A stretch of DNA of 64,000 nucleotides, taken from sequence record OQ599310; one strand, given 5' to 3'. The notes under the pieces were generated by a model. It was not told the DNA's origin, did not search any database, and worked only from the letters and a program-made list of their open reading frames with translations. Positions 2,270 through 24,942 of the stretch are shown piece by piece (the first letter of the stretch is position 1; the number at the start of each line of letters is the position of its first letter). The position numbers and the translations under genes are program-made. This DNA comes from Escherichia phage 55.

Positions 2270-2655
2270 TGCACCGTGTAGAAAACATGCTTAATCTTTG
2301 TTTTGATGTCGATGATTGTATAACAGAGTGGAATAACAATCGTGATTACGTGAACTTCAAACCAGACGTCGAAATGGTGTCTGCCATTAATGCCTTGTAT
2401 GATGCAGGGCATACCATAACGCTTTACACTGCTCGCGGTATGAAGTCAGTAGGTCCCGGTCGTATAGCAATTGACATTCTCCCGAGTCTGATTCAGAACT
2501 TGGAAAACATTGGCTTGAAGTACCATAATTTGCTAACACATAAACCAGTATATGATTGGATTATCGACGACAAAGCTATGCGTCCTGACGAATTCAAAGC
2601 TCTTATGAATAAAGGCGAATTCGAAACATTTAAATCATATAAACCGAATCTATAA
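2254..2655 (+). CDS. HAD-superfamily phosphatase (small, resembling the phosphatase domain of polynucleotide kinase)
   Basis: Motifs CFDVDDCIT (motif I), AGHTITLYTARG, YDWIIDDKA parallel the pseT phosphatase-domain motifs [21 protein letters not shown] in the same window; alternative start at 2269 (TAATG overlap). Confidence 0.55.
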   Translation: MGTNLMHRVENMLNLCFDVDDCITEWNNNRDYVNFKPDVEMVSAINALYDAGHTITLYTARGMKSVGPGRIAIDILPSLIQNLENIGLKYHNLLTHKPVYDWIIDDKAMRPDEFKALMNKGEFETFKSYKPNL

Positions 2656-19235: not shown

Positions 19236-19547
19236 ATGGTTTATGTATATGCAATAGTTTATCGAGATATGGAAGGATTTACTGTCCCGGTTCCACTTGA
19301 TGAGCATCGTCCTGCAGTATTTTTTAGAAAGGATATTGCAGATAAAGTTTTCGATACTTTGAAAACACAGTATAAAACAGATTTAAAAATGGGAGTTCTA
19401 AGAATGGTCGAAACTCCGCGTAAGTTCTGGTTTAATAAGCTTGAAATGAAACACGTTAAACTAGATGCGGAGACGCAAAGATTGTATCAACGAATTCTGG
19501 ACACAGGCCGTATTGTTAGTATTCCAATTGCAGGGACTTTACGATGA
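19236..19547 (+). CDS. hypothetical protein (dda.1 position)
   Basis: ORF overlapping dda start. Confidence 0.4.
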   Translation: MVYVYAIVYRDMEGFTVPVPLDEHRPAVFFRKDIADKVFDTLKTQYKTDLKMGVLRMVETPRKFWFNKLEMKHVKLDAETQRLYQRILDTGRIVSIPIAGTLR

Positions 19548-20857
19548 CATTTGATGATTTGACTGAAGGCCAGAAAAACGCCTTCAACGTTGTTATGAAC
19601 GCTATTAAAGAAAAGAAACATCACGTAACTATTAATGGGCCTGCTGGTACAGGTAAAACAACCCTTACTAGATTCATCGTTGAAGCTCTTATTTCTGCCG
19701 GAGAATCAGGTATTATTTTAGCAGCCCCTACACATGCTGCTAAAAAGGTTCTAAGCAAACTTGCGGGTCAAGAAGCATCGACTATTCATAGCATTCTTAA
19801 AATCAACCCAACTACATACGAAGAAAACGTATTGTTTGAACAGAAAAAGGTTCCCGACTTAGCCTTGTGTCGTGTACTGTTATTTGATGAAGCGTCAATG
19901 TGTGACCGTTCTCTGTTTAAAATAATGTTAGCTAGTATCCCTAAATGGTGCACAGTAATTGGAATTGGTGACCGATGTCAGATTCGACCGGTAGACCCAG
20001 GCGAATCAACTGCGTATCTAAGTCCTTTCTTCACTCACAAAGACTTTGTGCAATGCGACCTTACAGAAGTTAAACGTAGCAATGCACCAATTATTGATGT
20101 TGCGACTGATATTCGTAATGGCAAATGGATTTATGATAAAGTAGTTGATGGGCATGGTGTTCATGGATATACAGACCTTAAATCGTATATGATGAATTAT
20201 TTTAATGTCGTTAAAACTCCTGAAGACCTTTTCGAAAATCGAATGATGGCATTCACAAATAAGTCAGTAGATAAGTTGAATTCAATTATTCGCCGAAAAC
20301 TTCTTGAAACAGAAAAACCATTTATTAAAGACGAAGTCATTGTTCTACAAGAGCCGTTTACCAAGACATATAAGCTAGATGGCAAAAATATGACCGAAAT
20401 GCTTTTCAATAACGGGCAGTTCGTTCGTATTCGAGACGCTGTAGAAACGTCTACATTCGTTAAAGCACGTGGTGTTTCAGGCGAATATATGATACGATAC
20501 TGGAATCTTACAGTAGAAACATATGGCGATGATGAAGAATACGTCCGCGAGGATATAAAGGTTATTTCTTCTGAAGAAGAGCTTTATAAATTCAATTTGT
20601 TTTTGGCTAAGACCGCAGAAACATATAAATTCTGGAATAAAGGCGGTAAAGCTCCATGGAGCGAATTCTGGGATGCTAAACGTATGTTCACTAAGGTGAA
20701 GGCATTACCAGTATCAACCTTCCATAAGGCCCAGGGTATGTCTGTTGACACGGCCTTTGTTTATACACCGTGTATCCATTATGCCGATTCAGAATTAGCC
20801 AAACAATTACTATATGTCGGCACAACTCGTGGTCGTTTTGACGTCCATTTTATTTGA
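19544..20857 (+). CDS. dda: Dda SF1 DNA helicase
   Basis: 437 aa; Walker A GPAGTGKTT; SF1 motifs; T4 Dda-like length. Confidence 0.9.
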   Translation: MTFDDLTEGQKNAFNVVMNAIKEKKHHVTINGPAGTGKTTLTRFIVEALISAGESGIILAAPTHAAKKVLSKLAGQEASTIHSILKINPTTYEENVLFEQKKVPDLALCRVLLFDEASMCDRSLFKIMLASIPKWCTVIGIGDRCQIRPVDPGESTAYLSPFFTHKDFVQCDLTEVKRSNAPIIDVATDIRNGKWIYDKVVDGHGVHGYTDLKSYMMNYFNVVKTPEDLFENRMMAFTNKSVDKLNSIIRRKLLETEKPFIKDEVIVLQEPFTKTYKLDGKNMTEMLFNNGQFVRIRDAVETSTFVKARGVSGEYMIRYWNLTVETYGDDEEYVREDIKVISSEEELYKFNLFLAKTAETYKFWNKGGKAPWSEFWDAKRMFTKVKALPVSTFHKAQGMSVDTAFVYTPCIHYADSELAKQLLYVGTTRGRFDVHFI

Positions 20858-20866
20858 GAGAAAATT

Positions 20867-21544
20867 ATGAGCACTGATGTTATTATAGATTTTGAAACAT
20901 TCGGCAATACATCAAAAGCGGCTGTTATTGACCTTGCGGTTATTGCATATAATTCGGACCCTGAAGTTGTTGAAACATTTGAAGAACTTGTTCAACGAGG
21001 TAAGCGAATTAAATTTAATTTAGCTTCTCAAAAAGGGAAGCGAGTTTTCGCTAAATCCACTATGAAATGGTGGAAAGAACAATCAGCAGAAGCACGTAAA
21101 AACCTGGCTCCGTCTGAAGACGATGTCACTACGCTTGAAGGCATTAAAATCTTTTTAGACTATTGCCGAGCTAATAAAGTTGACCAATGGAAATCACAGA
21201 TGTGGTGCCGTGGTATGAGCTTTGACTTCCCGATCTTGGTCGATTTGATTCGTGACCTCTATCGTGATGAAGGTGTTCTTGAACCAGATATTGATACTGA
21301 TAAATTAGAACCTGTTAAATTCTGGGCTCAACGTGATATTCGTACGGCAATCGAAGCTTACTCGTTGACACGAGGATTAAGTATGTGTCCATTACCGATG
21401 GGTACGCTAAAAGGATTCGTTGCCCATGATAGTATTCATGATTGTGCTAAAGATATTTTGATGTTAAAATATGCTCAGCGTTATGCGCTTGGCCTTGAAG
21501 ATGTCCCTGAGAATCCTGACCCGTTAAGTGTAAAACAGCGATAA
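20867..21544 (+). CDS. dexA: exonuclease A (DnaQ-like 3'-5' exonuclease)
   Basis: N-terminal IIDFETFG, WCRGMSFDFPILVDLIRD resemble T4 DexA; 225 aa. Confidence 0.75.
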   Translation: MSTDVIIDFETFGNTSKAAVIDLAVIAYNSDPEVVETFEELVQRGKRIKFNLASQKGKRVFAKSTMKWWKEQSAEARKNLAPSEDDVTTLEGIKIFLDYCRANKVDQWKSQMWCRGMSFDFPILVDLIRDLYRDEGVLEPDIDTDKLEPVKFWAQRDIRTAIEAYSLTRGLSMCPLPMGTLKGFVAHDSIHDCAKDILMLKYAQRYALGLEDVPENPDPLSVKQR

Positions 21545-21549
21545 AACCA

Positions 21550-21579
21550 GTTTACAACCAAGGATGGTTGGAGTATAAT
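21550..21579 (+). promoter_or_regulatory. T4-type early promoter with inverted repeat (ACAACCA/TGGTTGG)
   Basis: GTTTAC then TATAAT at 18 bp. Confidence 0.55.
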
Positions 21580-21609
21580 CTTTCTATCTTAACCAAACAG
21601 GAAAACATT

Positions 21610-22104
21610 ATGAATATCAATACTACGGCTACTTACATCCTGAAAGATGAAAAACAAATCAACTGGTATGGTGCTTCAGTGCGAGCTTATGAAAAGTTTT
21701 GTGAAATTTTAGGTGCCACTCAAGGTAATAGTTTCACTATTGTTAACTTCATCAAACAAGTTGAAGGCCCTTGGTTATTCTTAGAAATTAAAAATTCATA
21801 TGGTACAATTTCTACTACCGCCCTTCCAAGCACCGACTTTGAACTGCTGATTGAAGAAGTAGAACCCGTTAAAGATATCTGTATTGATATGGATATCGCT
21901 TGTATGTACGGTACTCTTATTAAGCCTATTGAGCCTACTGATTTGCTGTGTAAATATGTTTCAATTCGACGCCCATTCGCTGGTCCAGTAAATGGATGGG
22001 TAACTGATCAGTGGATTGAAGACGGTGTTGAACTTCTGAACGTTGTTCATGCCGGTGATTTTAGTGTGGTTCCACGTAGTGCAGTAGTTAATATTCTAAA
22101 TTAA
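21610..22104 (+). CDS. hypothetical protein, member of a three-gene tandem paralog family
   Basis: C-terminus TDQWIEDGVELLNVVHAGDFSVV shared with the next two ORFs. Confidence 0.45.
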   Translation: MNINTTATYILKDEKQINWYGASVRAYEKFCEILGATQGNSFTIVNFIKQVEGPWLFLEIKNSYGTISTTALPSTDFELLIEEVEPVKDICIDMDIACMYGTLIKPIEPTDLLCKYVSIRRPFAGPVNGWVTDQWIEDGVELLNVVHAGDFSVVPRSAVVNILN

Positions 22105-22105
22105 T

Positions 22106-22136
22106 GTTGTACATCCAAGGATGGATGGAGTATAGT
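22106..22136 (+). promoter_or_regulatory. early promoter with inverted repeat (CATCCA/TGGATG)
   Basis: TTGTAC then TATAGT. Confidence 0.45.
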
Positions 22137-22168
22137 GAATTCAATTTAAACAAAGAGAGAGAGAAATT

Positions 22169-22624
22169 ATGATTACTATTGGTGAAATTAAGCGTGTATC
22201 GTCTGCATCTCGTTCTAAAGCTGCAGGTCGTCTAGTTGAAGTGGTAGGACTTCGTACTAATGGTACTGGACGTGTTAAAGAAGTTAAAGTTCGAATCATT
22301 CCTAGTTCTGGAAAAACTGAAACTCAGTACGCTTACGTAAGTCCTAAATTCTTGGAAACTCATGTGAGCGCTCATTTTGCTTCTACTGAACCTAATGTAC
22401 AGTTCAAATGGGCCCTTTGCAAAGGCGTTGAATTCCGGACTGATAAAGAATTTGATTTCATCGACGAATATGGTTATCCAAACAAAACTGATATTATGTG
22501 CGGCTTCATCACTGACCAATGGGTTGAAGATGGTGAAAAGTTATACAATATCGTATTCTTAGGTGACTTCCGAGTTGTTAAAGAATCTGAAATCACTCGC
22601 TATGTGTCTCCTCGTAAAGCTTAA
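22169..22624 (+). CDS. hypothetical protein, tandem paralog
   Basis: SASRSKAAGRLVEV... and DQWVEDGEKLYNIVFLGDFRVV shared with neighbours. Confidence 0.5.
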   Translation: MITIGEIKRVSSASRSKAAGRLVEVVGLRTNGTGRVKEVKVRIIPSSGKTETQYAYVSPKFLETHVSAHFASTEPNVQFKWALCKGVEFRTDKEFDFIDEYGYPNKTDIMCGFITDQWVEDGEKLYNIVFLGDFRVVKESEITRYVSPRKA

Positions 22625-22633
22625 GGAATTATT

Positions 22634-23053
22634 ATGAATATTGTAAATCTCTCTACAGGTGATTACGTATATGTATCTGTTGCTTCTCGCTCTAAAGTTG
22701 CCGGGAAGTTGGTTGAAGTTCTTTCTGTGAGTGATCCGGTTTTTGGTCGTAACCAAGTTAAAGTTCGTGATGCTAATGGTAATATTGGCTACGTCTCAAG
22801 CCAGTTCATTGAGCCAGAAGAAAAAGCGTTCAAATGGGGACTATGCAGATCAGTTTCTGTTGAAAAAGACCATGAATTCACTATTGCCGCGGCAACTGAT
22901 GGAACGCCATGGAAAACTAAGCAAATCGCCGGATTTATTAGCGACCGTTGGGTAGAAGATGGTGTTAAGCTTTATAACATCGTTTTCGCTGGTCAGTTCA
23001 TGGTAGTTCCTGAATTCCAAATTAAAAAATATAGCCCAGCTGCTTTCGCATAA
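22634..23053 (+). CDS. hypothetical protein, tandem paralog
   Basis: VASRSKVAGKLVEV... and DRWVEDGVKLYNIVFAGQFMVV. Confidence 0.5.
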   Translation: MNIVNLSTGDYVYVSVASRSKVAGKLVEVLSVSDPVFGRNQVKVRDANGNIGYVSSQFIEPEEKAFKWGLCRSVSVEKDHEFTIAAATDGTPWKTKQIAGFISDRWVEDGVKLYNIVFAGQFMVVPEFQIKKYSPAAFA

Positions 23054-23057
23054 AGTT

Positions 23058-23089
23058 GTTTACTTCTCCTCTGGTTTTGATATTATAAC
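23058..23089 (+). promoter_or_regulatory. T4-type early promoter with 11-bp inverted repeat (CTCCTCTGGTT / AACCAGAGGAG)
   Basis: GTTTAC, TATTAT at 17 bp; repeat arms 23066-23076 and 23096-23106. Confidence 0.5.
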
Positions 23090-23112
23090 CATATCAACCA
23101 GAGGAGAATAAT

Positions 23113-23637
23113 ATGTTAGTTTACCGCGTAGAACGTAGTTTTTGTACTCAACGTGAATCATTACCAGGAATTGTTATCGAAGACGGTAAAGCCGTCAGAA
23201 TTTGGGAAACCTCTTGGAATAAAGAACCTCGCTCACCTTACGGTTGGTCTGGCACTGACAACTCTGAAGAAACATGGGAGTTCCTTGATAAGCATGGAAT
23301 ACTCTCAGGTAACTTCTACCATCACGGCGACAACTATAATGTCCCTAATCGTCCTACTGTAAATGAGGACAAACTTCTTGAACAAAATATCTTAAGATAC
23401 TACAGAATTGAGCACACATTTGAATTGAACGAAGATTGGGCTCAAGGGTTCTATTTTGGATTTGAAAGTGTTGACGCGGTTTATGCATGGTTTGATGACC
23501 AGGTGGATGTTGAACTCTTGAAAGCTAAAGGATACTACATCGCGGTCTATGAAGCACCTGATTTCATCCTCGGAAGTTGTCAATTAATGTTTAGACGTTC
23601 ATTGGCAGAACAAGTTGATTTTATTTTGCTAAAATGA
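23113..23637 (+). CDS. hypothetical protein
   Basis: 174-aa ORF. Confidence 0.5.
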   Translation: MLVYRVERSFCTQRESLPGIVIEDGKAVRIWETSWNKEPRSPYGWSGTDNSEETWEFLDKHGILSGNFYHHGDNYNVPNRPTVNEDKLLEQNILRYYRIEHTFELNEDWAQGFYFGFESVDAVYAWFDDQVDVELLKAKGYYIAVYEAPDFILGSCQLMFRRSLAEQVDFILLK

Positions 23638-23668
23638 TGTACAACAACTATGGTCTATGATACTATAG
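23636..23668 (+). promoter_or_regulatory. possible early promoter with GGTCTAT/ATAGACC inverted repeat
   Basis: ATGTAC then TACTATAG. Confidence 0.4.
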
Positions 23669-23694
23669 ACCTATCAAAACAAGAGGAGAATATT

Positions 23695-23922
23695 ATGAAA
23701 CGTCAAATCATTAAAAACGTAACTACTGATTCAAACATCGATGAGTTTGAAGATGTTCTGTTTAATCCTGATTTAGTTGTTGTACAGAAAAACTGGACCG
23801 AATTTTTATGCTACACTGAAGTGGTTTACGTTTACGAAAAACTCGGCGATGAAATGCCTATCTACGGTATCTTCCGTGAAATCACTGAAAACGGTACAAC
23901 TTATTGGAAGGAAACTTACTAA
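23695..23922 (+). CDS. hypothetical protein
   Basis: ORF with AAGAGGAG RBS. Confidence 0.45.
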
Positions 23923-24332
23923 TGGCTAATAAATTCCGCATTAACTCATGGTACCAATTTAAAGATAAACGTGCCCAAGAAGAGTTTATTAAAGACCATA
24001 CTGATAATGGGATTTATGCACGACGTCTTGGCCTGGAACCATTTAAAGTATTAGATGTTGACCATCTTGGTCGTCCTACTAAAATTGTGACATCTACTGG
24101 CATGGTTGGATACGCAACAGGCGGTGATATCCTTGATGAAAACTTTATCTGGCTCTCCACGAATGAAGCAGAGTTCTTTGACGAAGTTGGAAATCCATAT
24201 CAAGAGTCTGAAGAGCAAGATTCTAGTGAACTTGGTGAATTGTCTGAATTTCCGGTGATGTCGATTACTATCGAAAATAACGACCAGGCATGGTCTTTGT
24301 ATCAAATGTTGAAAGCACATTTTAAGGAATAA
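23922..24332 (+). CDS. hypothetical acidic protein
   Basis: TAATG overlap. Confidence 0.45.
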
Positions 24333-24519: not shown

Positions 24520-24942
24520 ATGGCTTTTAAAGGTTTTGAAGTTGGTAAGAAATATCGTATTATCAAAGGTCAAGAAGATAATTTCTTGAGAATTCTTAAT
24601 ACAACTGGTAAACGTCTTAACACTACTCTGCATACAGTTTTATTATCAAGAGATTTTATTGTAGAAGAGATGATTGGTTACGGTGTTTCAATGATTGCCG
24701 CTGAAACCGATGGACCTGGACGTACAATCATTAGTATGCAAGGTGATATTCTGCTTTATGGTGCAGAATTTAAATTCTTTGAAGAAGTTAAGGAACCAGA
24801 TACAGCTGTCGATTTCAAAAAAGGCTCTATAGAATTTGTTGATGGTTCGGTTATCGTATCAGGCGATGTGGTCATTACAGTTAAAAGTGAACAAGGGCGT
24901 TTGGCTGCAATTGATGCACTTCAGAAAATTAAATTTAAATAA
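24520..24942 (+). CDS. hypothetical protein
   Basis: 140-aa ORF followed by terminator. Confidence 0.5.
   Translation: MAFKGFEVGKKYRIIKGQEDNFLRILNTTGKRLNTTLHTVLLSRDFIVEEMIGYGVSMIAAETDGPGRTIISMQGDILLYGAEFKFFEEVKEPDTAVDFKKGSIEFVDGSVIVSGDVVITVKSEQGRLAAIDALQKIKFK

What the first reader, a model, noticed from the sequence alone, without database searches (positions are those of the whole stretch)
21610..23053. Tandem array of three paralogous small genes downstream of dexA
All three proteins share the C-terminal block D(Q/R)W(I/V)EDG.(E/K)L.N(V/I)V..G.F.VV, and the second and third also share (S/V)ASRSK.AG.LVEV near the N-terminus. Each has its own promoter-like element. Tandem diversifying paralogs in phage early regions often encode host-takeover or anti-defence factors.
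Basis: seen in the sequence. Interest (0 to 1): 0.45.

Follow-up and report, generated by a model that had tools for sequence, protein, structure and literature searches.

The report
Known MotB-family gene trio of a T4-like phage
The three small neighbouring genes are real relatives of one another, but they are the already described motB.1 / motB / second-motB trio of RB69-like (T4-type) phages, whose T4 homologue is a DNA-binding early protein that alters how the host protein H-NS binds DNA, so the finding is correct but ordinary.

Summary
The window is a Mosigvirus (RB69-like T4-type phage, 98% identical to phage SA79RD). The three ORFs (21610-22104, 22169-22624, 22634-23053) are true paralogs. 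All three pass the Pfam motB (PF17613) threshold, and the shared C-terminal block and the ASRSK..AG.LVEV motif are exactly as described. They correspond to RB69 motB.1, motB and RB69ORF010c ("similar to motB"). Patterson-West et al. 2021 already reported that MotB and MotB.1 share a C-terminal domain, and that RB69 carries two motB plus one motB.1.

Two sub-claims fail. ORF3 has no promoter of its own (9-nt gap, bicistronic with ORF2). The genes are not diversifying (dN/dS 0.12-0.23; the duplication is old).

By homology to T4 MotB (49% identity to ORF2), the likely role is abundant, non-specific DNA binding that remodels H-NS-DNA complexes.

Small additions from this work:
- The models suggest both domains are SH3/Tudor/KOW-like barrels rather than an OB fold.
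- The positive charge sits in the N-terminal domain of ORF2, while ORF1 is acidic.
- The 119-aa T4 reference MotB.1 is an artefact of a 1-nt insertion found only in the reference record; the intact protein is 143 aa.

The parts
21551..21579 (+). Early (sigma-70-type) promoter-like site in front of ORF1: TTTACA-17-TATAAT, preceded by G (GTTTAC, the T4 early -35 form)
   Evidence: 11/12 match; conserved in all Mosigvirus relatives aligned
21610..22104 (+). ORF1, 164 aa, motB.1-type. It has an acidic N-terminal beta/alpha domain (aa ~1-88), a low-confidence linker carrying the motif DMDIACMYGTLIKP (aa ~93-108) and a MotB-family C-terminal barrel (aa ~109-164).
   Evidence: Pfam motB 35.1 bits, C-terminus only; phrog_2333, 1.7e-82; AF2 pLDDT 79; pI 4.5; 46% identity to intact T4 MotB.1, E 7e-43
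22108..22136 (+). Promoter-like site in front of ORF2 (TGTACA-17-TATAGT). It is part of a 48-nt direct repeat (22110-22157) of the ORF1 promoter/leader cassette (21553-21600), 75% identical.
   Evidence: family D1; TTTACA...TATAAT in JM10/MM02; T4 has a promoter-like site at the same place before motB
22169..22624 (+). ORF2, 151 aa, ortholog of T4 MotB / RB69 MotB. It has a basic KOW/SH3-like N-terminal barrel (aa ~1-62, pI 10.7), a disordered linker (aa 65-75) and a C-terminal barrel (aa ~78-151, pI 4.85).
   Evidence: Pfam motB 133 bits, full length; phrog_1671, 2.6e-64; 94% identical to RB69 MotB; AF2 pLDDT 83
22625..22633 (+). 9-nt ORF2-ORF3 spacer. The Shine-Dalgarno-like AAGGA overlaps the ORF2 stop, and there is no room for a promoter, so ORF2-ORF3 form a bicistronic unit. 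The same spacer is conserved in RB69, ime09, RB27, PHB12, JM10, MM02, F2 and PECP20.
22634..23053 (+). ORF3, 139 aa, second full-length MotB copy (RB69ORF010c type). It has a KOW-like N-terminal barrel, a very short linker and a C-terminal barrel with DRW instead of DQW.
   Evidence: 75.6 bits; phrog_1671, 6.6e-51; RB69ORF010c 'similar to motB'; 139-aa cluster P0030/P0037 on many contigs; 43% identity to ORF2, 37% to T4 MotB
23059..23108 (+). Boundary element just after the array. It is a promoter-like site (TTTACT-16-TATTAT, 23059-23086) embedded in a strong hairpin (23064-23108) whose 3' arm contains the Shine-Dalgarno GAGGAG of the next gene (ORF4 = motB.2 ortholog, 23113-23637). It looks like a promoter-early stem-loop (PeSL)-type cassette.
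   Evidence: -23.9 kcal/mol, z -4.8; the equivalent T4 hairpin before motB.2 gives -27.1, z -6.7; phrog_1106

Best explanation
The array is the motB.1 - motB - motB-like (RB69ORF010c) gene trio of an RB69-like (Mosigvirus) T4-type phage. Each product is a small two-domain protein: two SH3-like beta-barrels joined by a flexible linker. All three share the MotB-family C-terminal barrel. ORF2 and ORF3 also share a KOW-like N-terminal barrel, which is strongly basic in ORF2. ORF1 has a different, acidic N-terminal domain, of the type published as LSm/SH3-like in MotB.1, GoF and Frd.2.

The genes are probably transcribed early from two sigma-70-type promoters: ORF1 alone, and ORF2 plus ORF3 as one bicistronic message. 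By homology to T4 MotB, ORF2 (and probably ORF3) is made in large amounts, coats host and phage DNA without sequence specificity, and changes how H-NS/StpA sit on DNA. This de-represses H-NS-silenced genes and modestly raises phage yield. ORF1 has no established function; my inference is that it uses the shared C-terminal barrel on the same partner as MotB but does not bind DNA itself.

Shown here: paralogy, family membership, synteny with RB69, purifying selection, the promoter layout, and fold predictions from AF2 models. Taken from the literature on the T4 homologue: DNA binding, the H-NS effect and toxicity. Inferred: that the basic N-terminal barrel is the DNA-binding part, and the role of ORF1.
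For: Family and orthology:
- Pfam motB is above threshold for all three, with PHROG MotB-like and phrog_2333 hits.
- ORF2 is 94% identical to RB69 MotB and 49% to T4 MotB. ORF1 is 46% identical to intact T4 MotB.1.
- The gene order is identical to RB69: motB.1, (ORF012c), motB, ORF010c, motB.2, cef, goF.
- All 384 and 220 database homologs carry PF17613.

Literature:
- MotB and MotB.1 share a C-terminal domain with different N-terminal domains, and RB69 has 2 motB + 1 motB.1 (PMC7827196).
- MotB binds DNA, is toxic, copurifies with H-NS/StpA and improves burst size (PMC6070864), and changes the H-NS footprint and the H-NS regulon.

Selection: dN/dS is 0.12-0.23.

Structure:
- The AF2 models have pLDDT 83 and 79 and are two-domain, all-beta, with a short helix between strands 4 and 5 of each barrel.

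Charge: ORF2 N-terminal domain is +8 (pI 10.7) and its C-terminal domain is -3. ORF1 has pI 4.5.

Promoters.
Confidence: 0.78

Rival explanations
1. The paralogs are dedicated anti-defence proteins, each neutralising a different bacterial immune system. The array would then be an arms-race product.
For: They sit in a dispensable early region rich in host-takeover genes, and copy number varies between phages: two in T4 and VR26, three in RB69-like phages and some Tequatrovirus. H-NS itself acts as a xenogeneic silencer.
Against: dN/dS of 0.12-0.23 gives no sign of positive selection. The duplication is old. No published link to a defence system was found in the literature searches. T4 MotB acts on DNA in general and is toxic on its own.
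Confidence: 0.08
2. They are RNA-binding or post-transcriptional regulators. KOW, LSm and Tudor-like barrels often bind RNA or RNA-processing proteins.
For: The fold hits include Spt5/NusG/RfaH KOW domains, ribosomal proteins and the SMN Tudor domain. The MotB.1 N-terminal domain is published as LSm-like, related to GoF, whose D25Y mutant stabilises an mRNA.
Against: T4 MotB copurifies with DNA and binds DNA tightly. MotB.1 had no effect in the mRNA reporter assay, although that construct may have been the truncated 119-aa form.
Confidence: 0.1
3. One or more copies are decaying duplicates without function, for example ORF3 as a redundant copy or ORF1 as a remnant.
For: Old database records show motB.1 split or truncated in T4 and RB69. 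T4 lacks the third copy. T4 delta-motB.1 has no phenotype.
Against: All three are intact here and in every newer relative examined, and all are under purifying selection. The 'truncations' are indels confined to the old records. The 139-aa copy is conserved across two genera with the same 9-nt junction.
Confidence: 0.03

Closest known systems
T4 MotB (gene motB, Pfam PF17613 'Modifier of transcription'; Patterson-West et al. 2018, 2021)
   Same: ORF2 aligns end to end (49% identity, E 3e-41) and ORF3 at 37%. They share the same two-domain layout, the same invariant motifs (SRSK.AG.LVEV, FKW, DQWVEDG.KLYN.VF), the same position downstream of dexA and upstream of cef/goF/gene 39, and a promoter-like site at the same place.
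   Different: Here there are two full-length copies in one bicistronic unit. Linkers are shorter (151 and 139 aa versus 162). ORF3 is close to neutral in charge and has DRW for DQW. Nothing has been tested experimentally for these copies.
T4 MotB.1 / RB69 MotB.1 (phrog_2333; 'LSm-like fold' family with GoF and Frd.2, Kim et al. 2025)
   Same: ORF1 is 46% identical over its full length to the intact 143-aa T4 MotB.1. It has the same acidic N-terminal domain and the same MotB-type C-terminal barrel (..GWVTDQWIEDGVELLNVVHAG..SVVPRSAV), and it lies immediately upstream of motB.
   Different: ORF1 carries a 21-residue linker insert (ICIDMDIACMYGTLIKP...) that the T4 protein lacks. The T4 reference protein (119 aa) and the RB69 record (132 aa + 29-aa ORF012c) are truncated or split by record-specific indels, whereas ORF1 is intact.
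RB69 gene block motB.1 - RB69ORF012c - motB - RB69ORF010c - motB.2 (GenBank AY303349, 2003)
   Same: Same genes in the same order with the same spacers. The window is a close relative, and its ORF2 is 94% identical in protein.
   Different: In the window motB.1 is one uninterrupted ORF. RB69ORF012c does not exist as a separate gene here; it is the C-terminus of ORF1.
PeSL (promoter-early stem-loop) cassettes of T4-type phages (Arbiol et al. 2010; Comeau et al. 2014)
   Same: The element at 23059-23108 combines an early promoter-like site with a strong stem-loop at a module boundary. The motB.2 module it heads sits at a different place in T4 than here. The ORF1 and ORF2 promoter/leader regions are 75% identical direct repeats, as would be expected if recombination between regulatory cassettes shaped the array.
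   Different: The ORF1 and ORF2 cassettes show no significant stem-loop (z -0.08 and -1.0). I did not compare them with the published PeSL consensus.

Membership tests
Pfam PF17613 motB (MotB family) | Profile HMM score above the curated gathering threshold (25 bits) | tested here: met
   ORF1 35.1, ORF2 133.1 and ORF3 75.6 bits. All database homologs are pre-annotated PF17613.
Pfam PF17613 motB (MotB family) | Full-length match: KOW-like N-terminal domain plus conserved C-terminal domain (MotB proper, 'category 1' of Patterson-West 2021) | tested here: met
   Met for ORF2 (profile positions 2-157 of 162) and ORF3 (phrog_1671, positions 2-166 of 166). NOT met for ORF1, which matches only profile positions 78-153 and belongs to the MotB.1 branch.
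Pfam PF17613 motB (MotB family) | Location in the dispensable early region between dexA and cef/goF/gene 39 of a Tevenvirinae genome | tested here: met
   dda, dexA, ORF1-3, motB.2, cef, goF, 39.2 and gp39 are in order. Nearest records are Mosigvirus.
Pfam PF17613 motB (MotB family) | Non-specific DNA binding, toxicity in E. coli, copurification with H-NS/StpA and altered H-NS footprint (the properties of T4 MotB) | not testable with these tools
   Only a charge argument is available: the ORF2 N-terminal domain has pI 10.7. Literature.
MotB.1 subfamily / GoF-MotB.1-Frd.2 'LSm-like fold' family (Kim et al. 2025) | Sequence orthology to T4 MotB.1 over the N-terminal domain | tested here: met
   ORF1 versus the intact T4 MotB.1: 46% identity over 162 columns, E 7e-43. 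phrog_2333: 1.7e-82.
MotB.1 subfamily / GoF-MotB.1-Frd.2 'LSm-like fold' family (Kim et al. 2025) | N-terminal bent five-stranded antiparallel sheet (LSm/SH3-like) | tested here: inconclusive
OB-fold, cold-shock DNA-binding-like (published HHpred assignment for the MotB C-terminal domain) | OB topology (helix between strands 3 and 4) and closest structural neighbours being OB-fold proteins | tested here: not met
PeSL (promoter-early stem-loop) cassette | Early promoter combined with a stable stem-loop at a module boundary | tested here: met
   Met for 23059-23108. Not met for the ORF1 and ORF2 upstream regions, which have a promoter-like site but no significant fold.

The most novel reading that the evidence does not exclude
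The C-terminal barrel shared by all three proteins would not be the DNA-binding (OB-fold) module, as published. It would be a Tudor/SH3-like protein-interaction module that docks all family members on one common partner, either a nucleoid protein or each other. Under this reading, MotB-type proteins bring a basic KOW-like DNA-binding domain to that partner. The acidic MotB.1-type protein brings a different domain, or acts as a competitor or modulator. The second MotB copy would extend the range of targets, for example StpA or H-NS paralogs. The published negative results for 'MotB.1' would then need repeating with the intact 143-aa protein.
Probability: 0.15. Interest if true: 0.45.

Novelty: already known. 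Interest (0 to 1): 0.15.

Why it matters
As a discovery it matters little. The family has a Pfam entry. The arrangement has been annotated in RB69 since 2003. The paralogy between MotB and MotB.1, and the extra RB69 copy, were described in 2021.

The useful by-products are corrections for people working on these proteins:
1. The T4 reference MotB.1 (119 aa, UniProt P39415) lacks the last third of the shared domain, because of a 1-nt insertion seen only in the reference record. Recent functional and AlphaFold work cites those reference coordinates.
2. The RB69 '29-aa peptide' is simply the C-terminus of MotB.1.
3. The models favour two SH3-like barrels over a KOW + OB architecture, and the charge distribution points to the N-terminal barrel as the DNA-binding part.

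Tried and rejected
- NCBIfam gave no hit for any of the three ORFs or for ORF4.
- The PDB sequence search with ORF2 gave only chance-level hits, E 0.7-1.1.
- An exhaustive HMM search with the C-terminal-domain profile against 1.84 billion representatives found only 29 clusters. All sampled credible hits are PF17613. The three long multi-stretch hits (MucBP/LPXTG, Ig-repeat and a 939-aa protein) are repetitive proteins and were rejected as spurious. So no relatives outside T4-like phages were detected by sequence.
- I looked for a promoter for ORF3 inside ORF2. There is only a weak MotA-box-like string at 22376, about 250 nt upstream, and no late promoter TATAAATA. Rejected.
- I tested whether the small palindromes in the ORF1 and ORF2 promoter spacers form significant RNA structures. 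They do not (z -0.08 and -1.0).
- The TTG at 21568 listed as the ORF1 start was rejected because it lies inside the promoter-like site. The ATG at 21610 has AGGAA upstream.
- The 172-aa N-terminally extended ORF2 annotated in some relatives (mobillu, JM10) was rejected, because the extension covers the promoter and is closed by a stop in the window.
- Loci fetched in parallel batches were often not available to Python. I worked around this through DNA alignment.

Full report
**What is there**

The region lies in the early, + strand transcribed block of a T4-type phage. The order is dda (19544-20857), dexA (20867-21544), three small ORFs, a motB.2 ortholog (23113-23637), cef (23650-23922), a goF-like gene, the 39.2 zinc ribbon, a second goF-like gene and topoisomerase gp39. 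The 3.6 kb around the finding is 98% identical to Escherichia phage vB_EcoM_SA79RD and many other Mosigvirus (RB69-like) phages.

The three ORFs are:
- ORF1, 21610-22104, 164 aa
- ORF2, 22169-22624, 151 aa
- ORF3, 22634-23053, 139 aa

I take the ATG at 21610, not the TTG at 21568, as the ORF1 start. The TTG lies inside the promoter-like site, and the ATG has AGGAA upstream.

**Check of the observation**

The core DxW[IV]EDG occurs only in these three ORFs in the whole six-frame translation of the window. The similarity is not chance and not low complexity:
- Smith-Waterman z-scores against shuffles are 14-15 for ORF1 versus ORF2/ORF3 and 44 for ORF2 versus ORF3.
- BLASTP E-values are about 1e-6 and 3e-27.
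- The entropy of the last 40 residues is 3.7-3.9 bits.

ORF2 and ORF3 are homologous over their full length (43% identity). ORF1 shares only the last ~55 residues.

The statement that each gene has its own promoter-like element holds for ORF1 (TTTACA-17-TATAAT, 21551-21579) and ORF2 (TGTACA-17-TATAGT, 22108-22136; a near-consensus TTTACA/TATAAT in relatives JM10 and MM02). It does not hold for ORF3. ORF3 begins 9 nt after the ORF2 stop, and nothing promoter-like lies upstream of it on the + strand within ORF2, apart from a weak MotA-box-like string about 250 nt away. The ORF1 and ORF2 promoter/leader segments are themselves a 48-nt direct repeat, 75% identical.

**Identity**

All three ORFs exceed the gathering threshold of Pfam PF17613 'motB, modifier of transcription'. 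ORF2 and ORF3 match over the full length, and ORF1 matches over the C-terminal part only. In PHROGs, ORF2 and ORF3 are 'MotB-like transcriptional regulator' (phrog_1671). ORF1 is phrog_2333, with a secondary hit to phrog_1671 restricted to residues 126-163.

The 2003 RB69 record annotates the same block as motB.1, RB69ORF012c (29 aa), motB, RB69ORF010c 'similar to motB', motB.2, cef, goF. ORF2 is 94% identical to RB69 MotB and 49% to T4 MotB. ORF3 is 37% identical to T4 MotB. ORF1 is 46% identical over its full length to the intact T4 MotB.1.

T4 has the order dexA, motB.2, motB.1, motB, cef. The window therefore differs from T4 in two ways: it carries a second motB copy, and the motB.2 module sits after the block rather than before it.

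The trio also occurs in other Mosigvirus phages (mobillu, PHB12, JM10, MM02), in the unclassified phage PECP20, and in some Tequatrovirus phages (ime09, RB27, Sf24, F2). T4 and the Gaprivervirus VR26 have only motB.1 + motB.

**What the literature already says**

Patterson-West et al. 2021 (PMC7827196) made the following points:
- MotB homologs fall into groups with a common C-terminal domain and different N-terminal domains.
- T4 MotB.1, encoded just upstream of motB, is one such protein.
- One gene probably arose by duplication of the other.

Kim et al. 2025 (PMC12152347) assign the MotB.1 N-terminal domain to an LSm/SH3-like fold family with GoF and Frd.2. The finding is therefore already known, both as annotation and as published analysis.

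**Function and mechanism**

For T4 MotB the experimental record is as follows. [quoted passage not shown] It copurifies with DNA and binds unmodified and glucosyl-hmC DNA without sequence specificity. It copurifies with H-NS and StpA only in the presence of DNA. It changes the H-NS DNase I footprint to a MotB-like pattern. It up-regulates 75 host genes, a third of them H-NS-repressed. It doubles burst size, while the T4 transcriptome is almost unchanged by a motB knock-down. I transfer this to ORF2 as the most likely mechanism, and with less confidence to ORF3.

New supporting detail comes from models and composition:
- AlphaFold2 models built on family alignments (pLDDT 83 and 79) show two all-beta domains joined by a low-confidence linker. 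In each domain a short helix sits between the fourth and fifth strand, which is the SH3-like small-barrel arrangement.
- The positive charge of ORF2 is concentrated in the KOW-like N-terminal barrel (+8, pI 10.7), whereas its C-terminal barrel is acidic (pI 4.85).
- ORF1 is acidic throughout (pI 4.5), like T4 MotB.1 (pI 4.6). ORF3 is near neutral.

This suggests that DNA binding resides in the N-terminal barrel of MotB proper. It also suggests that the conserved C-terminal barrel does something else common to all paralogs. That is an inference, not a result.

**Is it 'diversifying'?**

No. Nei-Gojobori estimates over 7-11 orthologs from Mosigvirus and Tequatrovirus give dN/dS of 0.12 (ORF1), 0.23 (ORF2) and 0.14 (ORF3), against 0.09 for the neighbouring motB.2. 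The highest sub-region, the N-terminal third of ORF2, is 0.37. ORF2 and ORF3 differ by dN 0.54 with saturated dS (~1.5), so the duplication is ancient. All copies are intact in all newer genomes examined. The paralogs are old, maintained and under purifying selection.

**Breadth of the family**

Two word-indexed searches returned 384 and 220 clusters, all PF17613. The named source records are almost all T4-like phages, with some labelled as bacterial. An exhaustive HMM search of 1.84 billion representatives with a profile of the C-terminal domain found only 29 clusters. The few non-family hits are repetitive proteins and not credible.

The same C-terminal barrel is combined with at least four N-terminal arrangements of about 144, 164-169, 177-183 and 245-252 aa. 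These include hybrids with a KOW-like N-terminus and a MotB.1-type C-terminus, in line with the categories of the 2021 paper.

**Things noticed on the way**

(a) The T4 reference MotB.1 is truncated by a record-specific insertion.
- In the T4 reference record, motB.1 ends at 119 aa, right after ..TDQWI.
- An alignment shows one extra G relative to a newer T4 assembly, in which the ORF is 143 aa and ends with the full block EDGVELLNVVHAGEYSVVPRSAVVAILN.
- A 67-nt probe with the extra G matches perfectly only AF158101.6 and NC_000866.4.
- The 66-nt probe without it matches perfectly 11 other T4 genome records plus RB55 and RB59.
- The intact 143-aa protein is on 256 contigs.
- The 2025 study cites NC_000866.4 coordinates and a 13.8-kDa MotB.1, and UniProt P39415 is the 119-aa form.

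(b) The RB69 record has two extra T's relative to the window. These split motB.1 into a 132-aa ORF and the 29-aa RB69ORF012c, so the 'category 3 peptide' is simply the MotB.1 C-terminus.

(c) A strong hairpin sits right after ORF3, at 23064-23108 (-23.9 kcal/mol, z -4.8). It encloses the -10 element of the motB.2 promoter-like site and pairs with the motB.2 Shine-Dalgarno sequence. T4 has an equivalent hairpin before its motB.2. This is the type of promoter-early stem-loop cassette described by Arbiol/Comeau/Krisch as mediating module shuffling, and the motB.2 module is indeed at a different position in T4.

(d) ORF1 has a linker motif DMDIACMYGTLIKP that is absent from T4 MotB.1. A related motif occurs at the N-terminus of the 179-aa and 250-aa MotB.1-like proteins of ime09 and VR26. 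Its meaning is unknown.

**Verdict**

However, the object is a named family in a published arrangement. Two embellishments are wrong: a promoter for each gene, and diversifying evolution. Novelty: already known. Interest: low.

Noticed in passing
L002 (T4 NC_000866.4) 2292-2651 minus strand; compare window 21934-22104: The T4 reference motB.1 (119 aa, UniProt P39415) is truncated by a single extra G that occurs only in AF158101.6/NC_000866.4. Eleven other T4 genome records plus RB55 and RB59 lack it and encode a 143-aa protein with the complete MotB-type C-terminal domain. Recent functional and AlphaFold work on 'MotB.1' cites the reference coordinates and a 13.8-kDa protein.
   Followed up: yes
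L003 (RB69 AY303349) 1947-2443; compare window 21610-22104: The RB69 record has two extra T's relative to the window. These split motB.1 into a 132-aa ORF plus the 29-aa 'RB69ORF012c'. The 29-aa 'category 3 peptide' of the 2021 paper is just the C-terminus of MotB.1.
   Followed up: yes
window 23059-23108: A strong hairpin (-23.9 kcal/mol, z -4.8) lies immediately after ORF3. It encloses the -10 of the promoter-like site of the next gene (motB.2 ortholog) and base-pairs with that gene's Shine-Dalgarno sequence GAGGAG. T4 has an equivalent hairpin before motB.2. It looks like a PeSL-type cassette: read-through transcripts would have the ribosome-binding site masked, while transcripts from the internal promoter would not.
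   Followed up: partly
window 21553-21600 and 22110-22157: The promoter/leader regions of ORF1 and ORF2 are a 48-nt direct repeat (75% identical). Each has a small palindrome in the promoter spacer (CAACC..GGTTG versus CATCC..GGATG). There is no significant RNA fold, so this may be a recombination substrate or a protein-binding site.
   Followed up: partly
window 21886-21927 (ORF1 aa ~93-106): The short motif DMDIACMYGTLIKP lies in the low-confidence linker of ORF1. It is absent from the 143-aa T4 MotB.1. A related motif (D-x-D-[IV]-x-x-[MT]-Y..P[IV]K) sits at the N-terminus of the 179-aa (ime09) and 250-aa (VR26) MotB.1-like proteins and in KOW-type hybrids. It may be a portable interaction motif.
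   Followed up: no
window 23113-23637 versus T4 (L002 2662-3162): The motB.2 module, with its promoter-hairpin cassette, lies after the motB genes here and in RB69. In T4, RB27, Sf24 and ime09 it lies directly after dexA. This is an example of module relocation within the hyperplastic region.
   Followed up: partly
window 23922-24332 and 24520-24942: Two goF-like paralogs (both phrog_622) flank the 39.2 zinc-ribbon gene. The second (the RB69ORF005c type) also gives a weak hit to the MotB.1 family phrog_2333 over its N-terminal part (E 0.005). This is consistent with the published GoF/MotB.1 N-terminal domain relationship.
   Followed up: no
L001 2806-3324 (mobillu), L007 1038-1556 (JM10), L011 1038-1598 (F2): Several GenBank records annotate MotB with a 21-residue N-terminal extension (MLYIQGWMEY...) that starts in the stop codon of motB.1 and runs through the promoter-like site. 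In the window this frame is closed, so the extension is most likely a mis-annotation.
   Followed up: partly
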